From a phage, in sequence record PZ452605.1: a DNA stretch of 50,828 bases; one strand, written 5' to 3'. The first letter of the stretch is position 1. Each line of letters begins with the position of its first letter. Shown piece by piece: positions 32,145 through 50,252 of the stretch. Under the pieces are notes generated by a model, which saw nothing but the letters and a program-made list of their open reading frames with translations, was not told where the DNA came from and searched no databases. The position numbers and the translations under genes were made by a program.

Positions 32145-32376
32145 ACAAGGTAGAGAGGCGGTATGGAATCACGCTAAAGAATGCGGAATAGCCGACGATA
32201 TAAAGAAGATCGCGCAATACTTTGATATTGCAGATGTGAGCATAATTAGCGGCGATAAGATGACTTTCCTCAAGGAAAGGCCGCGAAAAATGGTAAGAGC
32301 TCCAGCAGTTCCAACAAAAATTGATTTCAAAGAGGCAATGGCTAAAATCCGAGAGCCTCGCAAATATTATAAATGA
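32134..32376 (+). CDS. hypothetical protein
   Basis: 80 aa; ATG overlaps upstream stop region. Confidence 0.3.
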   Translation: MKVEQGREAVWNHAKECGIADDIKKIAQYFDIADVSIISGDKMTFLKERPRKMVRAPAVPTKIDFKEAMAKIREPRKYYK

Positions 32377-32470
32377 GGATAGTTATCATGTGGCGCTTGT
32401 TTGTTCTACCGTTACCCGTTATCATCGCTGTTACAGTTATGTACCATATAGTGATGAGATAGGTAGCAGA

Positions 32471-33586
32471 ATGAAAAATGTAAAAATTACAGATGAGCAA
32501 TTCAAGATCGAACGGGCGGCGGGTAAGACATATAAACAGATCGCTCAAGAGTACGGAATGAATGTGAGAAGCGTCGAGCGTCGCGCGGCGCGACTTGCAA
32601 AGCAAGGCCAGGTATCCACCATTGGAGCGCCTGGTTTTGGCGTTCATGGTGAGTCAGTAATGACTGACAAAGAAGGCAACATAATCCTAAAGTGGACTAA
32701 AACCAGCAAGGATAAAGAGCAATTAGAAGCATTAATGCGCGCAGCAATGGAGGCATTTAGCGAGGAAGTGCCGCGATTAGATCCGGTTCCATTACAGGAG
32801 CGCGACTATAACGAAACGCTTTCCTTGTATCCGATCTTTGACATGCACTTAGGCGCTATGGCCCATAAGCACGAATGCGGCGAAAATTGGGATACTGCCA
32901 CGGCAGAGCGCGTTATGAATAACTTTATCGACTATGCTTTAATGTGCGCACCGGATAGCGAAAAGGCTGTCATCCTGATTGGTGGCGATATGCTGCATAG
33001 CGACGGCCTGGAGGCGGTTACACCTGCAAGCGGTCACGTACTGGATCAAGATAGTCGATATGCAAAATTGGTTTACGTTGCCATCCGTGCAATGCGACGC
33101 GCAATCAATAAAATGTTGTTAAAGCATAAACATGTTGAAGTCCAGATCGTAGAGGGCAATCATGACCAATCAGGAATGATTTGGCTGCGCGCAGCAATGG
33201 CGGCAGCATATGAAAACGAGCCGCGCGTTTACGTTGATGTTTCACCTCGCGTTGTGCACCACACGCAATACGGAAAAACTTTCCTTGCGTACCATCACGG
33301 GCACACAGTGCGTAAACCGGAGACTTTGCTAATGATGTGCGCGTCAGATTGGCGGGAGGACTTCGGAAACTCAAAAACGATGTATGCGCACGTAGGGCAC
33401 TGGCATCACCAGACCGTGACAGAAACGTCGCTTGGCATCGTTGAGGTGCATAGCACCCTGGCGGCAAAAGACGCATACGCCGCGCGCGGTGGCTGGAGAT
33501 CTCGACGCCGTGCGGCGGTTATCATTTACGACAAAGAGCATGGAGAGGTGGGGCGATTTGTTCACTATCCAGAAATGATGAATTGA
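32471..33586 (+). CDS. calcineurin-like metallophosphoesterase with N-terminal HTH
   Basis: GDMLHSD, GNHD and GHWHH phosphoesterase motifs; N-terminal KQIAQEYGMNVRSVERR helix-turn-helix. Confidence 0.6.
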   Translation: MKNVKITDEQFKIERAAGKTYKQIAQEYGMNVRSVERRAARLAKQGQVSTIGAPGFGVHGESVMTDKEGNIILKWTKTSKDKEQLEALMRAAMEAFSEEVPRLDPVPLQERDYNETLSLYPIFDMHLGAMAHKHECGENWDTATAERVMNNFIDYALMCAPDSEKAVILIGGDMLHSDGLEAVTPASGHVLDQDSRYAKLVYVAIRAMRRAINKMLLKHKHVEVQIVEGNHDQSGMIWLRAAMAAAYENEPRVYVDVSPRVVHHTQYGKTFLAYHHGHTVRKPETLLMMCASDWREDFGNSKTMYAHVGHWHHQTVTETSLGIVEVHSTLAAKDAYAARGGWRSRRRAAVIIYDKEHGEVGRFVHYPEMMN

Positions 33587-42264: not shown

Positions 42265-42292
42265 TTGACACGCACCAAATAGCTTTTATAAT
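42265..42292 (+). promoter_or_regulatory. consensus sigma70 promoter (TTGACA-16-TATAAT)
   Basis: perfect -35 and -10 hexamers with 16-nt spacer, 30 nt upstream of ATG 42324. Confidence 0.65.
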
Positions 42293-42323
42293 GCGCCAAC
42301 AGTCAACAACCGGAGGAAAGGAA

Positions 42324-42788
42324 ATGGAACAGAAAACCACTAAGGACTATTGCGATTGGCTTCGCGAGCTTGGTCGCCGCCTGGCTAGTGGAGATATTGA
42401 AGAGTATAAAATGTCACTAATTGACCTTGCCGGAATGTTAAGCGGTGACGACTGCTACAAGATCACGCGCAGTTCATCCTACAGCCGGACCATTATCAAC
42501 CGCGTTCCAGAAGTAAGGGCCGCAGGTCGGGTAAGTATCAAGGTCGAGGAAACGGAAGATGATAAATTTTACGTTTTCCGCATGGTCCGCGAATCGAAAA
42601 GGAAAATCATCACACCCGAAGAATTGCCAGCCATCAAGGCAAGGGCGATCAAAAAGTTTGCCGATCGCTTGCTGGCAGCAATCCCGAATATCGTTGACCT
42701 GGAAGGGGATAAACTGGCTGGAGCTTGTGAGGGCGTAAGCCGCTACCAGGATATGATCCGCGAAATCATCAAAGAGGAAGAGCAATGA
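42324..42788 (+). CDS. hypothetical protein, first gene of early rightward cluster
   Basis: 154 aa from ATG with GGAGG RBS. Confidence 0.45.
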   Translation: MEQKTTKDYCDWLRELGRRLASGDIEEYKMSLIDLAGMLSGDDCYKITRSSSYSRTIINRVPEVRAAGRVSIKVEETEDDKFYVFRMVRESKRKIITPEELPAIKARAIKKFADRLLAAIPNIVDLEGDKLAGACEGVSRYQDMIREIIKEEEQ

Positions 42789-43497: not shown

Positions 43498-44391
43498 ATG
43501 TTAAAACTTGCTGACATTAAATTCCCGATCACCTTCGAATCTCGCGGCATTGGTCATTACATTTTTACTGATGAAAAAACATGCCATAAAGTTGATTTGC
43601 ATAGCTACAAGCGTGCTCCATCAGGCATGGAGATTGAACACTTCATTGATGCACATAACAAGCACTACAGCGCACTTAAAGACTATGGCTATGCAATGCC
43701 AGGCTACACATGTTTGCACTACAAGCCATATAAGGGCCAGGTGTTACCAGTGCGCTCACCGGAACGCGCAGAGATTCCGATGGTCAATATGAAAACCTGC
43801 GACTACAAAAAGCTGTGGTGCTTAAGTCTGGACAATATCAAGTATCCGATCACGTTCCACACGACTGGTAAGTCAACGATTCGCTACACATCGCGCGACA
43901 ATGGCGTTTATAGCGATGGCACGAAATCAGAGTTGAAAGTTGATTTCTTTGTTGATGGTCACAATAGATACAATCCACACAACGAAAAAGATAAGGTGTA
44001 CTACGTGGAAGACATTACAAAACACTTATTTGGAGAAACACCATTCGGCGGCGGGAAGACGTCAATTCAGAAAATAATTGGCGAGGAGATCCACAAATCG
44101 GCTAGCGAAATAAAAGCGCCTGGAGGCTGGCGTATTGATAAGAGCGCCTTTGCCAATCAAGAAATCGTAACGCAGGGCGCAATTGAAGACATGCCAGTTG
44201 CAGCCACGCTAAAAGGAGTCCAGCTTGATGATGGTTCATGGTATGAACTAACTGCGAAACCAAAGACGATTGAGATTCATGATGATGCTGTTATCCTTCT
44301 GCTTCACTATGGCAGCGCAAAAAACCGGACTGTTGCGGGTGAGATCAGCATCAAGTGCGGAACGATGGTTAAGTGGAAGGTAAAAGTGTAA
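43498..44391 (+). CDS. hypothetical protein with internal tandem duplication
   Basis: 297 aa; AGGAGG RBS; repeats LADIKFPITFESRG and LDNIKYPITFHTTG. Confidence 0.5.
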   Translation: MLKLADIKFPITFESRGIGHYIFTDEKTCHKVDLHSYKRAPSGMEIEHFIDAHNKHYSALKDYGYAMPGYTCLHYKPYKGQVLPVRSPERAEIPMVNMKTCDYKKLWCLSLDNIKYPITFHTTGKSTIRYTSRDNGVYSDGTKSELKVDFFVDGHNRYNPHNEKDKVYYVEDITKHLFGETPFGGGKTSIQKIIGEEIHKSASEIKAPGGWRIDKSAFANQEIVTQGAIEDMPVAATLKGVQLDDGSWYELTAKPKTIEIHDDAVILLLHYGSAKNRTVAGEISIKCGTMVKWKVKV

Positions 44392-44875: not shown

Positions 44876-45415
44876 ATGAAAAAATACACTTTCGAACTAT
44901 GGGGCAAGAAATACGAATTAATGACCAGCAAGCCGATTGTTATCGTTGATCTGGATGGCACACTATCGGACGGATCGCATCGTTTGCATTTGCTGCCAAC
45001 TGAAAACTTACACCTTACGGAATCGTGGAGCGAATTTAACAGGGCCGCCGCCGGAGATTCACCGATTAAAAGCACGATCGCGGTTATTAACGGTTTATGG
45101 GTGTCGGGATTTGCCATCGTCATCTTGACCGGACGCAGCGACGAGGTGCGCTATGAAACCTGCAAATGGTTGAATGAGAGCGGCGTGAAGTTTGACGAAA
45201 TCATCATGCGCCGCCAGGAGGACAACCGAAAGGATACGGTTATTAAAGAAGAAGCCTTGCGCGCTATTGGCCTGGACAATATTGTTTGCGCCTTTGACGA
45301 TTCGCCGAACGTGGTTAAGCACTTCCGCAGCCTGGGAATCACAACCTATCAGGTCACGGAATACGACAAGCCACACGCTCACCTGCAATCTCACGGCGTG
45401 GAGTGTTTAAAATGA
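44876..45415 (+). CDS. HAD-superfamily phosphatase (nucleotidase / PNK-phosphatase-like)
   Basis: HAD motif I VIVDLDGTLSD; 179 aa. Confidence 0.6.
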   Translation: MKKYTFELWGKKYELMTSKPIVIVDLDGTLSDGSHRLHLLPTENLHLTESWSEFNRAAAGDSPIKSTIAVINGLWVSGFAIVILTGRSDEVRYETCKWLNESGVKFDEIIMRRQEDNRKDTVIKEEALRAIGLDNIVCAFDDSPNVVKHFRSLGITTYQVTEYDKPHAHLQSHGVECLK

Positions 45416-45573
45416 CTTGGTTGCTTTTAATCTTTGTCACAAGTTACAACTCCGCAGCTATTGAGTCGCAGGAGTTCCACGGCGAATCAAGATGCCAGGA
45501 AGCGCGAAAGCAAGTTGTTCTCCACATGTCAGATAGTGGGAAGGATGTAACAGCGTTATGCGTTCGTAAATAG
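45412..45573 (+). CDS. small protein with N-terminal hydrophobic segment
   Basis: 53 aa; ATGA overlap with upstream stop; stop TAG embedded in motif; below ORF-track cutoff. Confidence 0.3.
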   Translation: MTWLLLIFVTSYNSAAIESQEFHGESRCQEARKQVVLHMSDSGKDVTALCVRK

Positions 45574-45590
45574 CACTTTTTGCAAAAAAC
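45570..45590 (+). repeat. intergenic motif copy, co-directional (variant)
   Basis: ATAGCACTTTTTGCAAAAAAC containing stop TAG of small ORF. Confidence 0.6.
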
Positions 45591-45645
45591 AGATTAACGG
45601 GCTTGCGGTATAGTAAGCCCATCAACAACAAACGAGGATTAAATC

Positions 45646-45909
45646 ATGGCTGACAAGATCGAGTTTTTTAAAGCTGTAGACATTATCGACGGCGCGCCTA
45701 GCTTCTTTGCTATCCATTCTATTGACGGCAAGGATATTGGGTACAACGTTATCCGTCGAGATGGAATCTCAAAACTTAGTGACCTAGTAGGCCATATTGT
45801 GTCAAACGGGAAATGCGCATGGCCCGATTCGCCACGAGAGCCACGCCGCCGCGACATGGTAGAGCCTGTTCTGCTTTACACTCTGGTAGTAGAAGGAGAA
45901 AATAAATGA
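45646..45909 (+). CDS. hypothetical protein
   Basis: 87-aa ORF. Confidence 0.4.
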   Translation: MADKIEFFKAVDIIDGAPSFFAIHSIDGKDIGYNVIRRDGISKLSDLVGHIVSNGKCAWPDSPREPRRRDMVEPVLLYTLVVEGENK

Positions 45910-46091
45910 TTTGGTTACTTGCTTTTTTTGTTGTTTTTCTTTACATTTCAGGCTTGTTTACGTTCCGCGCGTTGGTGAAATATTCTGACGCGACAGACAA
46001 AGACGATAAAATCGTTCTCGCTTTCTGGTTTGTTTGGGTGTGGTTAGCAATTTACGAGATCATCAGAGACAAACAGAAATTTGATTGGTGA
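45906..46091 (+). CDS. small membrane protein
   Basis: 61 aa, two hydrophobic helices. Confidence 0.35.
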   Translation: MIWLLAFFVVFLYISGLFTFRALVKYSDATDKDDKIVLAFWFVWVWLAIYEIIRDKQKFDW

Positions 46092-46147
46092 TTCTTGCTA
46101 TGGCGCATTCATGCAGTGCGCCATGTTGAGAAAACCTAAAGGGGGAA

Positions 46148-46291
46148 ATGATGCGTAACTTTGAAAAAATCGTTACCAAAAAGAATCGTCGCGGATACGA
46201 TGAGCATGTAGAGTTTGTGAACAAGCAACGCAAGAAGCGCCATAGACGCGAAATGCTGCATAATATCAACTCACGCTATGGAGATCATTAA
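46148..46291 (+). CDS. small basic protein
   Basis: 47 aa, K/R-rich; GGGGG RBS; stop overlaps kinase start. Confidence 0.3.
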   Translation: MMRNFEKIVTKKNRRGYDEHVEFVNKQRKKRHRREMLHNINSRYGDH

Positions 46292-46293
46292 TC

Positions 46294-46884
46294 ATGAAGC
46301 GAGACATTATCATCCTTAATGGGCCGCCAGGCTGCGGGAAGGACACTATTGCAGCTTACCTAACGGGCCATCGTTACCCTGCTGTCAAGGCGTCATTCAA
46401 ACAGCCGATGTTCGATATTGCTTTTTCTATGCTGGGCGTGTACCGATACGATGAATTTATGGACATGTACAACGACCGAGAGCAAAAAGAAAAGCCTCAA
46501 GTTATCTTAGGAGGCAAGTCACCTCGACAATTCATGATCTGGATTAGTGAGGATGTAATGAAGCCAGTTTTTGGGGGTCACTATTTCGGGCGTCGAATGG
46601 TTGAAGAGATTCACGAGAGGTACCGAGATTTGGCGGTTGTAATCAGTGATGGCGGATTCCCCGAAGAAATCAAGCCGCTTGTTAAGGCAGGGCATGAAGT
46701 GCATATTTGCCGATTGCATCGCGACGGCTTCACGTTTGCTGGCGATTCGAGAGACTACATTGACCTGAGCGGTTATCACTATCGAATCCATCACTATGAT
46801 TTCCACTTGCAGGAAGGTAAGCCGGAACTGGCTGTAAGCGAGATCGTCAATGCAGTCAAATGGAAGCACACACAGATTAAATAG
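46294..46884 (+). CDS. P-loop kinase (dNMP kinase-like)
   Basis: Walker A LNGPPGCGKDT resembling phage dNMP kinases; 196 aa. Confidence 0.55.
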   Translation: MKRDIIILNGPPGCGKDTIAAYLTGHRYPAVKASFKQPMFDIAFSMLGVYRYDEFMDMYNDREQKEKPQVILGGKSPRQFMIWISEDVMKPVFGGHYFGRRMVEEIHERYRDLAVVISDGGFPEEIKPLVKAGHEVHICRLHRDGFTFAGDSRDYIDLSGYHYRIHHYDFHLQEGKPELAVSEIVNAVKWKHTQIK

Positions 46885-50228: not shown

Positions 50229-50252
50229 ACCCGCCGCACGGCGGGTTTTTTA
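50229..50252 (+). terminator. rho-independent terminator
   Basis: CCCGCCG-CA-CGGCGGG then T6. Confidence 0.65.

What the first reader, a model, noticed from the sequence alone, without database searches (positions are those of the whole stretch)
44876..46884. HAD phosphatase and P-loop kinase split by small membrane genes
A HAD phosphatase (DxDGT) and a dNMP-kinase-like P-loop protein are 0.9 kb apart with three small ORFs between them. Together they could be a split polynucleotide kinase-phosphatase (nucleic-acid end repair, for example against anticodon nucleases) or a nucleotide-pool remodelling pair; no RNA ligase was found.
Basis: inference. Interest (0 to 1): 0.45.

Follow-up and report, generated by a model that had tools for sequence, protein, structure and literature searches.

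The report
Phage dNMP kinase with phosphatase partner
These are two already-annotated genes of a T1-like coliphage, a deoxynucleotide (dNMP) kinase and a phosphatase of the Pnkp/Dmp type, that are an old, usually adjacent and occasionally fused gene pair for handling deoxynucleotides, not a split RNA/DNA end-repair enzyme.

The parts
44876..45415 (+). Kinase-less HAD (DxDxT) phosphatase of the Pnkp/Dmp clade, annotated 'polynucleotide kinase' in GenBank relatives. Predicted catalytic residues: D25 (nucleophile), D27 (acid-base), T85, R87, D120, K124, D141, D142.
46294..46884 (+). Deoxynucleoside monophosphate kinase (DNK) of the T4 gp1 / T5 Dnk family. P-loop G10-T18. Family-wide invariant residues: K16, D17, R78, D119, E125, D151.
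45403..45573 (+). Small inserted ORF (56 aa from GTG; 53 aa from the ATG at 45412) with a hydrophobic N-terminus. Function unknown.
   Evidence: PHROG 5579 at 3e-09. Present in only 4 of 80 related loci. In relatives this position is instead occupied by a C-terminal extension of the HAD protein.
45646..45909 (+). Small inserted ORF (87 aa), soluble, function unknown.
   Evidence: Weak PHROG hits only. Present in 21 of 80 loci.
45906..46091 (+). Small inserted ORF (61 aa) with two predicted transmembrane segments.
   Evidence: PHROG 9755 at 1e-21. Kyte-Doolittle segments 1-25 and 35-54. Present in 19 of 80 loci.
46148..46291 (+). Small, very basic ORF (47 aa, 14 K+R) ending 2 nt before the kinase start codon. 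Near-threshold resemblance to T7 gp1.1.
   Evidence: Pfam Phage_1_1 20.9 bits against a cut-off of 21. Present in 9 of 80 loci.
32321..33586 (+). 'DNA repair exonuclease' (HTH plus a metallophosphoesterase-like domain). It is the frequent third member of the block in other lineages, but lies 11 kb away in this genome.
   Evidence: PHROG 704 at 8e-149. Sub-threshold Metallophos and HTH Pfam hits. Its homologue lies within about 90 bp upstream of the HAD-kinase pair in 30 of 80 loci and in Rao1 as gp56-gp57-gp58. AAS23 ORF38-40 has the same order.
42265..42292 (+). Perfect sigma-70 consensus (TTGACA-16-TATAAT), a possible promoter for the rightward cluster of small genes that contains both genes.
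   Evidence: This is a consensus match only; the total number of such sites is not above chance.
50229..50246 (.). Strong bidirectional terminator-like hairpin; the first strong plus-strand terminator downstream of the pair.

Best explanation
The two genes are the deoxynucleotide-handling pair of a T1-like phage that has no DNA polymerase, ribonucleotide reductase, thymidylate synthase or ligase, and that (from the T1/TLS literature) builds its DNA largely from degraded host DNA. The kinase (DNK) uses ATP bound at the K16 P-loop to convert 5'-dNMPs to dNDPs, and host Ndk then makes dNTPs. This step is shown experimentally for close homologues. The HAD protein is a Mg2+-dependent aspartyl-phosphate phosphomonoesterase, with D25 as nucleophile and D27 as acid-base. 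Its chemistry is inferred from complete conservation of the T4 Pnkp phosphatase site. Its substrate is inferred, not shown. The most likely substrates are 3'-phosphorylated deoxynucleotides or DNA ends (3'-dNMP, pdNp, 3'-phosphate termini) produced during DNA breakdown. Removing that phosphate would leave 5'-dNMPs, or exonuclease-competent ends, that feed the kinase. The pair is ancestral: HAD then kinase, usually abutting, often preceded by a metallophosphoesterase-type 'exonuclease', and occasionally fused into one polypeptide. In this phage's clade, variable small accessory ORFs have been inserted between the two genes, which probably remain in one rightward transcription unit.
Against: No activity has been measured for any T1-type HAD, so its 3' versus 5' specificity is unknown. 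E. coli and phage nucleases mostly leave 3'-OH and 5'-phosphate ends, so the source of 3'-phosphorylated substrates is unclear. The kinase occurs without any detectable HAD in 10 of 80 loci and in Chaseviridae, so the partnership is not obligatory. Deleting dnk in Rao1 had no fitness cost in the laboratory. The 80 loci are the closest relatives and are phylogenetically non-independent. The conserved HAD insert (residues 29-62) is modelled with low confidence, so substrate-pocket inference is not possible.
Confidence: 0.6

Rival explanations
1. Split or analogous Pnkp: the HAD heals 3'-phosphate or 2',3'-cyclic phosphate ends and the P-loop protein phosphorylates 5'-OH ends of broken tRNA or DNA, with a host enzyme sealing the break, for example to counter anticodon nucleases.
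For: The HAD's closest solved relatives are Pnkp phosphatase domains, and all catalytic residues checked are conserved. The phosphatase-plus-kinase fusions resemble a bifunctional end-healing enzyme in outline.
Confidence: 0.1
2. The HAD is a Dmp-like 5'-deoxynucleotidase. It dumps or filters dNMPs (for example dAMP, dIMP or dUMP), remodelling pools and shielding the phage from immune systems such as Kongming that exploit its own DNK.
For: The HAD and T5 Dmp share PHROG 415. The HAD shares the DLDGT, 'HR' and T-x-R motifs and the long post-motif-I insert with T5 and VPG01 Dmps. It is 23% identical to VPG01 Dmp over the whole core. Dmp homologues are reported to co-exist with DNKs. In Vequintavirinae the kinase gene overlaps an NT5C-like HAD nucleotidase gene.
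Against: Rao1 carries an orthologous HAD (gp57, 57.8% identical) directly upstream of its DNK. Yet Rao1 is Kongming-sensitive, dAMP rises 2-3-fold during its infection, and T5 Dmp supplied in trans is needed to rescue it. The HAD is closer to T4 Pnkp's phosphatase (27.4% identity, 33.6 HMM bits) than to the Dmps (12 and 9 bits). It lacks the T5-type insertions and C-terminal extension. No named Dmp appears in the top 50 viral fold matches. Co-expression or fusion with a kinase that competes for the same substrate looks counter-productive.
Confidence: 0.15
3. There is no functional coupling: the two are independent accessory genes that travel together only because they sit in the same inherited early-gene block.
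For: Four unrelated ORFs separate them here. The kinase occurs alone in 10 of 80 loci and in Chaseviridae. The sampled loci are mostly related siphoviruses.
Against: The order and strand are invariant in 70 of 70 loci even though the spacer is a hot-spot for gene turnover. The genes overlap in an unrelated Autographiviridae phage. In-frame fusions exist in three divergent clusters.
Confidence: 0.15

Closest known systems
Phage dNMP kinases: T5 Dnk, T4 gp1, Rao1 R1DNK, Bas06/KarlJaspers DNK
   Same: Same PHROG (139), same fold and same conserved core. 80.6% identical to the KarlJaspers DNK and 45.8% to R1DNK, both tested experimentally (Kongming trigger; in vitro phosphorylation of all four dNMPs).
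   Different: Shorter than T4 gp1 and T5 Dnk (196 aa against 241 and 250 aa), lacking their helical insertions. Only about 25-27% identical to them. The substrate range of this exact protein has not been measured.
T4 polynucleotide kinase-phosphatase (PseT), phosphatase domain; Capnocytophaga Pnkp1
   Different: No Pnk-type kinase domain and no ligase partner. It carries a conserved 'HRLHLLPT...TESWxEFN' insert about 13 residues longer than T4's segment, plus an N-terminal beta-hairpin. Its partner kinase is a dNMP kinase, and in fusions the order is phosphatase then kinase.
T5 Dmp (deoxynucleoside-5'-monophosphatase) and the Dmp-DNK relationship in the Kongming arms race
   Same: Same PHROG (415). 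Shared DLDGT, HR and T-x-R motifs and the long insert. A phosphatase co-occurring with a DNK in one genome.
   Different: Pairwise similarity is marginal (motif only to T5 Dmp; 23% to VPG01 Dmp). T5-type Dmps are 212-244 aa with extra insertions, and in T5 and VPG01 the dmp and dnk genes are far apart in the genome; in T5, dmp lies in the first-step-transfer DNA and is expressed earlier. The Rao1 orthologue of this HAD does not prevent dAMP accumulation or Kongming activation.
Mammalian PNKP (for the fused HAD-DNK proteins P0258, P0387 and P0266 only)
   Same: A HAD phosphatase followed by a P-loop kinase in one polypeptide.
   Different: The kinase halves belong to different families (dNMP kinase versus polynucleotide 5'-kinase). 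This is a resemblance of layout from my own knowledge, not tested homology.

Membership tests
gp1/Dnk-type phage dNMP kinase (PHROG 139) | Profile membership together with the biochemically characterised members T4 gp1 and T5 Dnk | tested here: met
   Window kinase 1.4e-50; T4 gp1 1.8e-65 and T5 Dnk 1.4e-51 over the same profile span; hhalign versus T5 Dnk probability 95.6%, E 1.2e-8.
gp1/Dnk-type phage dNMP kinase (PHROG 139) | Fold closest to the T4 gp1 structure over nearly the full length | tested here: met
gp1/Dnk-type phage dNMP kinase (PHROG 139) | P-loop G-x-x-G-x-G-K-D-T and the shared conserved core | tested here: met
   G15, K16, D17, R78, D119, E125 and D151 are invariant across 21 sequences including T4 gp1 and T5 Dnk.
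gp1/Dnk-type phage dNMP kinase (PHROG 139) | dNMP to dNDP kinase activity | not testable with these tools
   Literature only: R1DNK (45.8% identical) phosphorylates dAMP, dGMP, dCMP and dTMP; the KarlJaspers DNK (80.6% identical) triggers Kongming.
T4-type polynucleotide 5'-kinase domain (Pnk) | Sequence or profile similarity beyond the P-loop | tested here: not met
   hhalign aligns only 25 P-loop columns. There is no hit to PHROG 505 or 2071, where the T4 PseT kinase half falls. PDB sequence hits are P-loop only.
T4-type polynucleotide 5'-kinase domain (Pnk) | Conserved acidic general base shortly after strand beta-2 (T4 Asp35; residue role from my own knowledge) | tested here: not met
   The invariant residues there are S34, F35 and K36. 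There is no conserved Asp or Glu in residues 26-40, and D41 is variable. No structure-based superposition was done.
Pnkp-type HAD 3'-phosphatase domain (Pfam PF25109) | Passes the curated Pfam gathering score | tested here: met
   75.8 bits against 27.6.
Pnkp-type HAD 3'-phosphatase domain (Pfam PF25109) | Catalytic residues of the T4 phosphatase site (D165, D167, S211, K258, D278 per PMC3592404; R176, R213, D254, D277 from my own knowledge) | tested here: met
   The equivalents are D25, D27, T85, K124, D142, R36, R87, D120 and D141.
Pnkp-type HAD 3'-phosphatase domain (Pfam PF25109) | Fold closest to solved Pnkp phosphatase domains | tested here: met
Pnkp-type HAD 3'-phosphatase domain (Pfam PF25109) | 3'-phosphomonoesterase specificity | not testable with these tools
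   No biochemical data were found for any T1-type HAD.
Bifunctional Pnkp end-healing and sealing system (T4 PseT plus Rnl1 type) | A Pnk-type kinase and a ligase partner encoded with the phosphatase | tested here: not met
   The kinase is of the DNK type (see above). No ligase is annotated in the 95%-identical genome, and none was found in the ten larger unassigned window ORFs scanned.
T5 Dmp-type 5'-deoxynucleotidase | Profile membership with T5 Dmp | tested here: met
   Both fall in PHROG 415: window HAD 6.3e-66, T5 Dmp 3.6e-57.
T5 Dmp-type 5'-deoxynucleotidase | Direct full-domain similarity and the T5-type architecture (insertions plus a C-terminal extension, 212-244 aa) | tested here: not met
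   T5 Dmp matches the motif only (E 0.01-0.04). VPG01 Dmp: 23% identity, E 2.7e-4. The HAD-family HMM scores 9-12 bits on the Dmps against 33.6 for T4 PseT. The T5-type insertions and tail are absent.
T5 Dmp-type 5'-deoxynucleotidase | Depletes dAMP in vivo and blocks Kongming | not testable with these tools
   Indirect literature evidence against: Rao1 encodes the orthologue gp57 yet is Kongming-sensitive, accumulates dAMP, and is rescued by T5 Dmp in trans.

The most novel reading that the evidence does not exclude
The T1-type HAD and the DNK form a coupled two-step enzyme system, in effect a mononucleotide-level counterpart of Pnkp, which some phages have fused into one protein. In one version the phosphatase strips a 3'-phosphate (from pdNp, 3'-dNMP or 3'-phosphate ends made during host-DNA breakdown) and hands the resulting 5'-dNMP to the kinase. 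In another it selectively removes non-canonical or immune-signal precursors (dIMP, dUMP) so that the phage's own DNK does not betray it. Either way, a widespread family currently mislabelled 'polynucleotide kinase' would gain a defined new activity and a defined partner.
Probability: 0.25. Interest if true: 0.55.

Novelty: already known. Interest (0 to 1): 0.3.

Why it matters
As flagged, the finding is ordinary. Both genes are annotated in dozens of near-identical T1-like phages, the kinase's near-orthologue has been tested experimentally, and a nucleotide-supply role for the pair has already been suggested in print. Three points may still be useful. First, the label 'polynucleotide kinase' on these 179-aa proteins, and on PHROG 415, is misleading. 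They have no kinase domain, and the only biochemically defined member of that PHROG that I identified is T5 Dmp, a dNMP 5'-phosphatase. Second, the HAD-then-DNK order is conserved across unrelated phage families and is occasionally fused, which is good evidence of functional coupling and names a concrete, cheap biochemical experiment. Third, because phage DNKs are the trigger of the Kongming defence, the function of the phosphatase that so often sits next to them bears on that arms race. The published Rao1 data already suggest that it is not simply another Dmp.

Tried and rejected
2. hhalign of the kinase family against T4 PseT aligned only the P-loop, so a Pnk-type kinase was rejected.
3. Promoter and terminator scanning of 41-50.8 kb gave counts no higher than shuffled controls. 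Only one perfect consensus promoter and one strong terminator are worth noting, and co-transcription remains an inference. Short hairpins in the spacer were not pursued.
4. I tested whether the metallophosphoesterase-like gene upstream of the pair in Ahp1 is homologous to the window's 'exonuclease'. There is no significant similarity, so that parallel is one of gene class only. The PVP-SE1 upstream gene is a DnaQ/RNase T-type exonuclease instead.
5. I looked for divergent HAD, Dmp or NT5C-like genes in the 10 loci without a HAD and found none.
6. T5 Dmp has no Pfam hit and no PDB hit. Direct BLASTP against the window HAD aligns the motif only. The V18 NT5C-like protein is unrelated to T5 Dmp at pairwise level.
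The accepted model has a low-confidence insert, so no pocket or specificity analysis was attempted.
8. The retron Eco2 paper mentions PNK only as a reagent. Later Kongming papers say nothing about the T1-type HAD.
9. Fig. S3 of the Kongming preprint (sensitivity of each BASEL phage, presence of DNK and Dmp) is an image and could not be read. So I could not see whether the authors counted T1-type HADs as Dmp homologues or whether Bas06 is sensitive.

Full report
**What the window is.** Megablast of 43-48 kb finds 274 phage records. [quoted passage not shown] The window is essentially a whole T1-like genome. It has terminase, head, tail, RecE/Erf/SSB, primase, two helicases, two methyltransferases and a lysis cassette. 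No DNA polymerase, ligase or nucleotide-biosynthesis genes were seen in the relative's annotation or in the ten larger unassigned window ORFs that I scanned.

**Observation check.** ORF 44876-45415 (179 aa, DLDGT at residues 25-29) and ORF 46294-46884 (196 aa, GPPGCGKDT) are on the plus strand, 878 bp apart. There are four ORFs between them, not three (56, 87, 61 and 47 aa). The same four are annotated in phage KarlJaspers. Only the 61-aa ORF has clear transmembrane segments, and the 47-aa ORF is very basic.

**The kinase is a dNMP kinase, not a Pnk kinase.**
- Pfam, NCBIfam and PDB sequence searches see only the P-loop.
- The protein matches PHROG 139 at 1.4e-50. T4 gp1 (1.8e-65) and T5 Dnk (1.4e-51), fetched from their genomes, fall in the same PHROG over the same span. 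The kinase half of T4 PseT goes to PHROGs 505 and 2071.
- Profile comparison aligns 73 columns with gp1, including the shared GKDT, DRE and LNGKSP motifs, and 66 columns with T5 Dnk at 95.6% probability. Only 25 P-loop columns align with T4 PseT.
- Across 21 diverse members including gp1 and Dnk, the residues G15, K16, D17, R78, D119, E125 and D151 are invariant.
- No conserved acidic residue follows strand beta-2, where Pnk-type 5'-OH kinases place their general base (the role of that residue is from my own knowledge).

**Experimental anchor for the kinase.** The Kongming preprint (bioRxiv 10.1101/2024.12.20.629578) shows that phage DNKs trigger the KomABC defence by helping to make dITP. It also shows that Rao1 R1DNK phosphorylates dAMP, dGMP, dCMP and dTMP in vitro, and that a K15A mutation abolishes triggering. 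Using the sequences in its supplement, the window kinase is 80.6% identical over its full length to the KarlJaspers (Bas06) DNK, which triggers Kongming. It is 45.8% identical to R1DNK and 42.7% to the Klebsiella phage VAC2 DNK. KarlJaspers has the same layout as this window: a 179-aa HAD (84.4% identical), four small ORFs, then the DNK.

**The HAD is a real Pnkp-type phosphatase domain that also touches the Dmp family.**
- It scores 75.8 bits on Pfam HAD_PNKP against a cut-off of 27.6.
- Its only significant PDB sequence matches are Pnkp1 and the T4 Pnkp phosphatase domain.
- All the T4 catalytic residues checked have conserved counterparts here: the nucleophile D165, the acid-base D167, the phosphate ligands S211 and K258, and the Mg ligand D278 (roles per PMC3592404), plus R176, R213, D254 and D277 (from my own knowledge).
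- There is no kinase domain, so the GenBank name is a misnomer.
- Unexpectedly, T5 Dmp, the characterised deoxynucleoside-5'-monophosphatase, has no Pfam or PDB hit but belongs to PHROG 415 (3.6e-57). That PHROG is the window HAD's best match (6.3e-66).
- The two share DLDGT (T5 D22 is the residue mutated in the Kongming work), an H-R motif, a T-x-R motif and a long post-motif-I insert. Pairwise similarity is marginal, however. T5 Dmp matches the motif only, and VPG01 Dmp is 23% identical with E 2.7e-4. The HAD-family HMM gives 33.6 bits to T4 PseT but only 12 and 9 bits to the two Dmps.
- The T1-type HAD therefore lies between the two characterised types and is nearer to Pnkp.

**The two genes are an evolutionary unit.**
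- Among the 80 best IMG/VR loci encoding the kinase, 70 have a HAD homologue. It is always upstream and on the same strand. The gap is 200 bp or less in 36 loci, which are the more divergent lineages. In the window's own clade the gap is 0.7-2.2 kb.
- The four spacer ORFs occur in only 4, 21, 19 and 9 of these loci. The sequence just after the HAD is mosaic: relatives carry a 57-aa C-terminal module, with or without a Cys-rich insert, joined at 'HGVE'. The spacer is therefore a site of accessory-gene turnover within an older pair.
- The genes abut in Klebsiella T1-like phages and in Rao1 as gp57-gp58. They overlap in Aeromonas phage Ahp1, an Autographiviridae podovirus.
- An exhaustive profile search found about 4,000 kinase clusters, mostly standalone. 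Three divergent clusters (P0258, P0387 and P0266, 37-74% identical to each other) are single polypeptides with HAD_PNKP at the N-terminus and the DNK at the C-terminus. They occur on phage contigs from independent samples.
- In 30 of 80 loci, in Rao1 and in Pantoea phage AAS23, a homologue of the window's 421-aa 'DNA repair exonuclease' (HTH plus a metallophosphoesterase-like domain; window 32321-33586) sits immediately upstream, giving a three-gene block.
- The partnership is not obligatory. Ten loci have the kinase and no detectable phosphatase. In Chaseviridae the kinase lies between DNA ligase and dUTPase. In Vequintavirinae it overlaps a different, NT5C-like HAD next to ThyX and RNR.

**Mechanism.**
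- Shown, for close homologues: the kinase converts dNMPs to dNDPs.
- Inferred from conserved residues: the HAD hydrolyses a phosphomonoester through an aspartyl-phosphate intermediate.
- Inferred from context: the two act in one pathway on deoxynucleotides derived from DNA breakdown. T1 and TLS degrade host DNA and reuse the nucleotides (PMC11447400), and a nucleotide-supply role has been proposed (PMC13164509).
- I favour a 3'-phosphatase activity (3'-dNMP, pdNp or 3'-phosphate ends) that yields kinase substrates or exonuclease-competent ends. The active site is Pnkp-like, T4's enzyme accepts 3'-dTMP, and a 3'-phosphatase does not compete with a 5'-dNMP kinase, which makes adjacency and fusion sensible.
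- A Dmp-like 5'-nucleotidase role is less likely. Rao1 encodes the orthologous HAD next to its DNK, yet dAMP rises 2-3-fold on infection, the phage is Kongming-sensitive, and T5 Dmp in trans is required to rescue it.
- A true end-healing Pnkp role is least likely, given the kinase's identity and the absence of a ligase.

**Verdict.** The 'split Pnkp' reading is not supported. The 'nucleotide-pool pair' reading is supported for the kinase and plausible for the HAD. The genes and their rough roles are already in the databases and the literature. What remains open is the substrate of the T1-type HAD and the reason for its tight association, and occasional fusion, with the DNK.

Noticed in passing
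window 46148-46291: A 47-aa, very basic ORF (14 K+R) ends 2 nt before the kinase start codon. It scores 20.9 bits on Pfam Phage_1_1 (T7 gene 1.1 protein) against a cut-off of 21. T7 gene 1.1 lies in T7's early nucleotide and DNA-metabolism region, so the resemblance may be real.
   Followed up: partly
window 43498-44391: A 297-aa ORF of unknown function (PHROG 7116) matches the profile in two stretches and has a visible internal duplication (IKFPITFESRG... and IKYPITFHTTG...). It lies upstream of the HAD region and has homologues in 25 of 80 related loci.
   Followed up: partly
window 45380-45420 (3' end of the HAD gene): Mosaic junction. Near-identical relatives (97%) continue after 'HGVE' into a 57-aa C-terminal module, sometimes with an extra Cys-rich (zinc-ribbon-like) insert, giving proteins of 206-264 aa. 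Here the protein stops after 'GVECLK' and an unrelated 56-aa ORF follows.
   Followed up: partly
PHROG 415, and GenBank annotations of H1-H15 and H76-H93: Kinase-less HAD proteins of about 180 aa are widely annotated 'polynucleotide kinase' or '3'-phosphatase, 5'-polynucleotide kinase'. PHROG 415 carries that label although it contains T5 Dmp, a dNMP 5'-phosphatase. One Klebsiella phage record even labels the HAD 'u-spanin' (H81).
   Followed up: yes
L085 3596-4198 (PVP-SE1 gp131); L087 3606-4199 (V18 gp178): In Vequintavirinae the DNK gene overlaps a downstream gene for a different HAD phosphatase. It resembles NT5C-type 5'(3')-deoxynucleotidases (27.1 bits against a cut-off of 24.8 in V18; PHROG 420, 'unknown function') and is followed by ThyX and RNR. 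This looks like a second, independent kinase-phosphatase pairing.
   Followed up: partly
L036, L039, L040, L042, L043, L045 (for example L040 8720-11520): One lineage of 23-45 kb contigs has the DNK without any HAD. The DNK is flanked by a 380-403-aa ORF directly upstream and a 323-aa ORF that overlaps its 3' end. Neither ORF was identified.
   Followed up: no
L088 8001-9212 (P0258) and neighbours: The fused HAD-DNK gene sits on a phage contig of about 60 kb with RdgC, NinH, a PAPS-reductase-like gene, a Dam-type methylase and a Prim-Pol, which is not a T1-like gene set. The fusion therefore arose, or moved, outside Drexlerviridae.
   Followed up: partly
window 42265-42788: A perfect sigma-70 consensus promoter (TTGACA-16-TATAAT) is immediately followed by a 165-aa DUF7174 protein (173 bits). 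It marks the start of the long rightward block of small genes that contains the pair.
   Followed up: no
(for example MG065640, Campylobacter phage A14b): Between 19 and 39 records named 'Campylobacter phage', with Campylobacter jejuni given as host, match this T1-like coliphage region at 78-90% identity. That looks like mis-assigned hosts or contaminating coliphages in those isolations.
   Followed up: no
window 46100-46124 and 45594-45625: Short intergenic hairpins (a perfect 8-bp stem, ATGGCGCA/TGCGCCAT, and an 11-nt imperfect stem) flank the inserted small ORFs. They have no T-tract, so they are not classical terminators. They may be processing sites or recombination boundaries.
   Followed up: no
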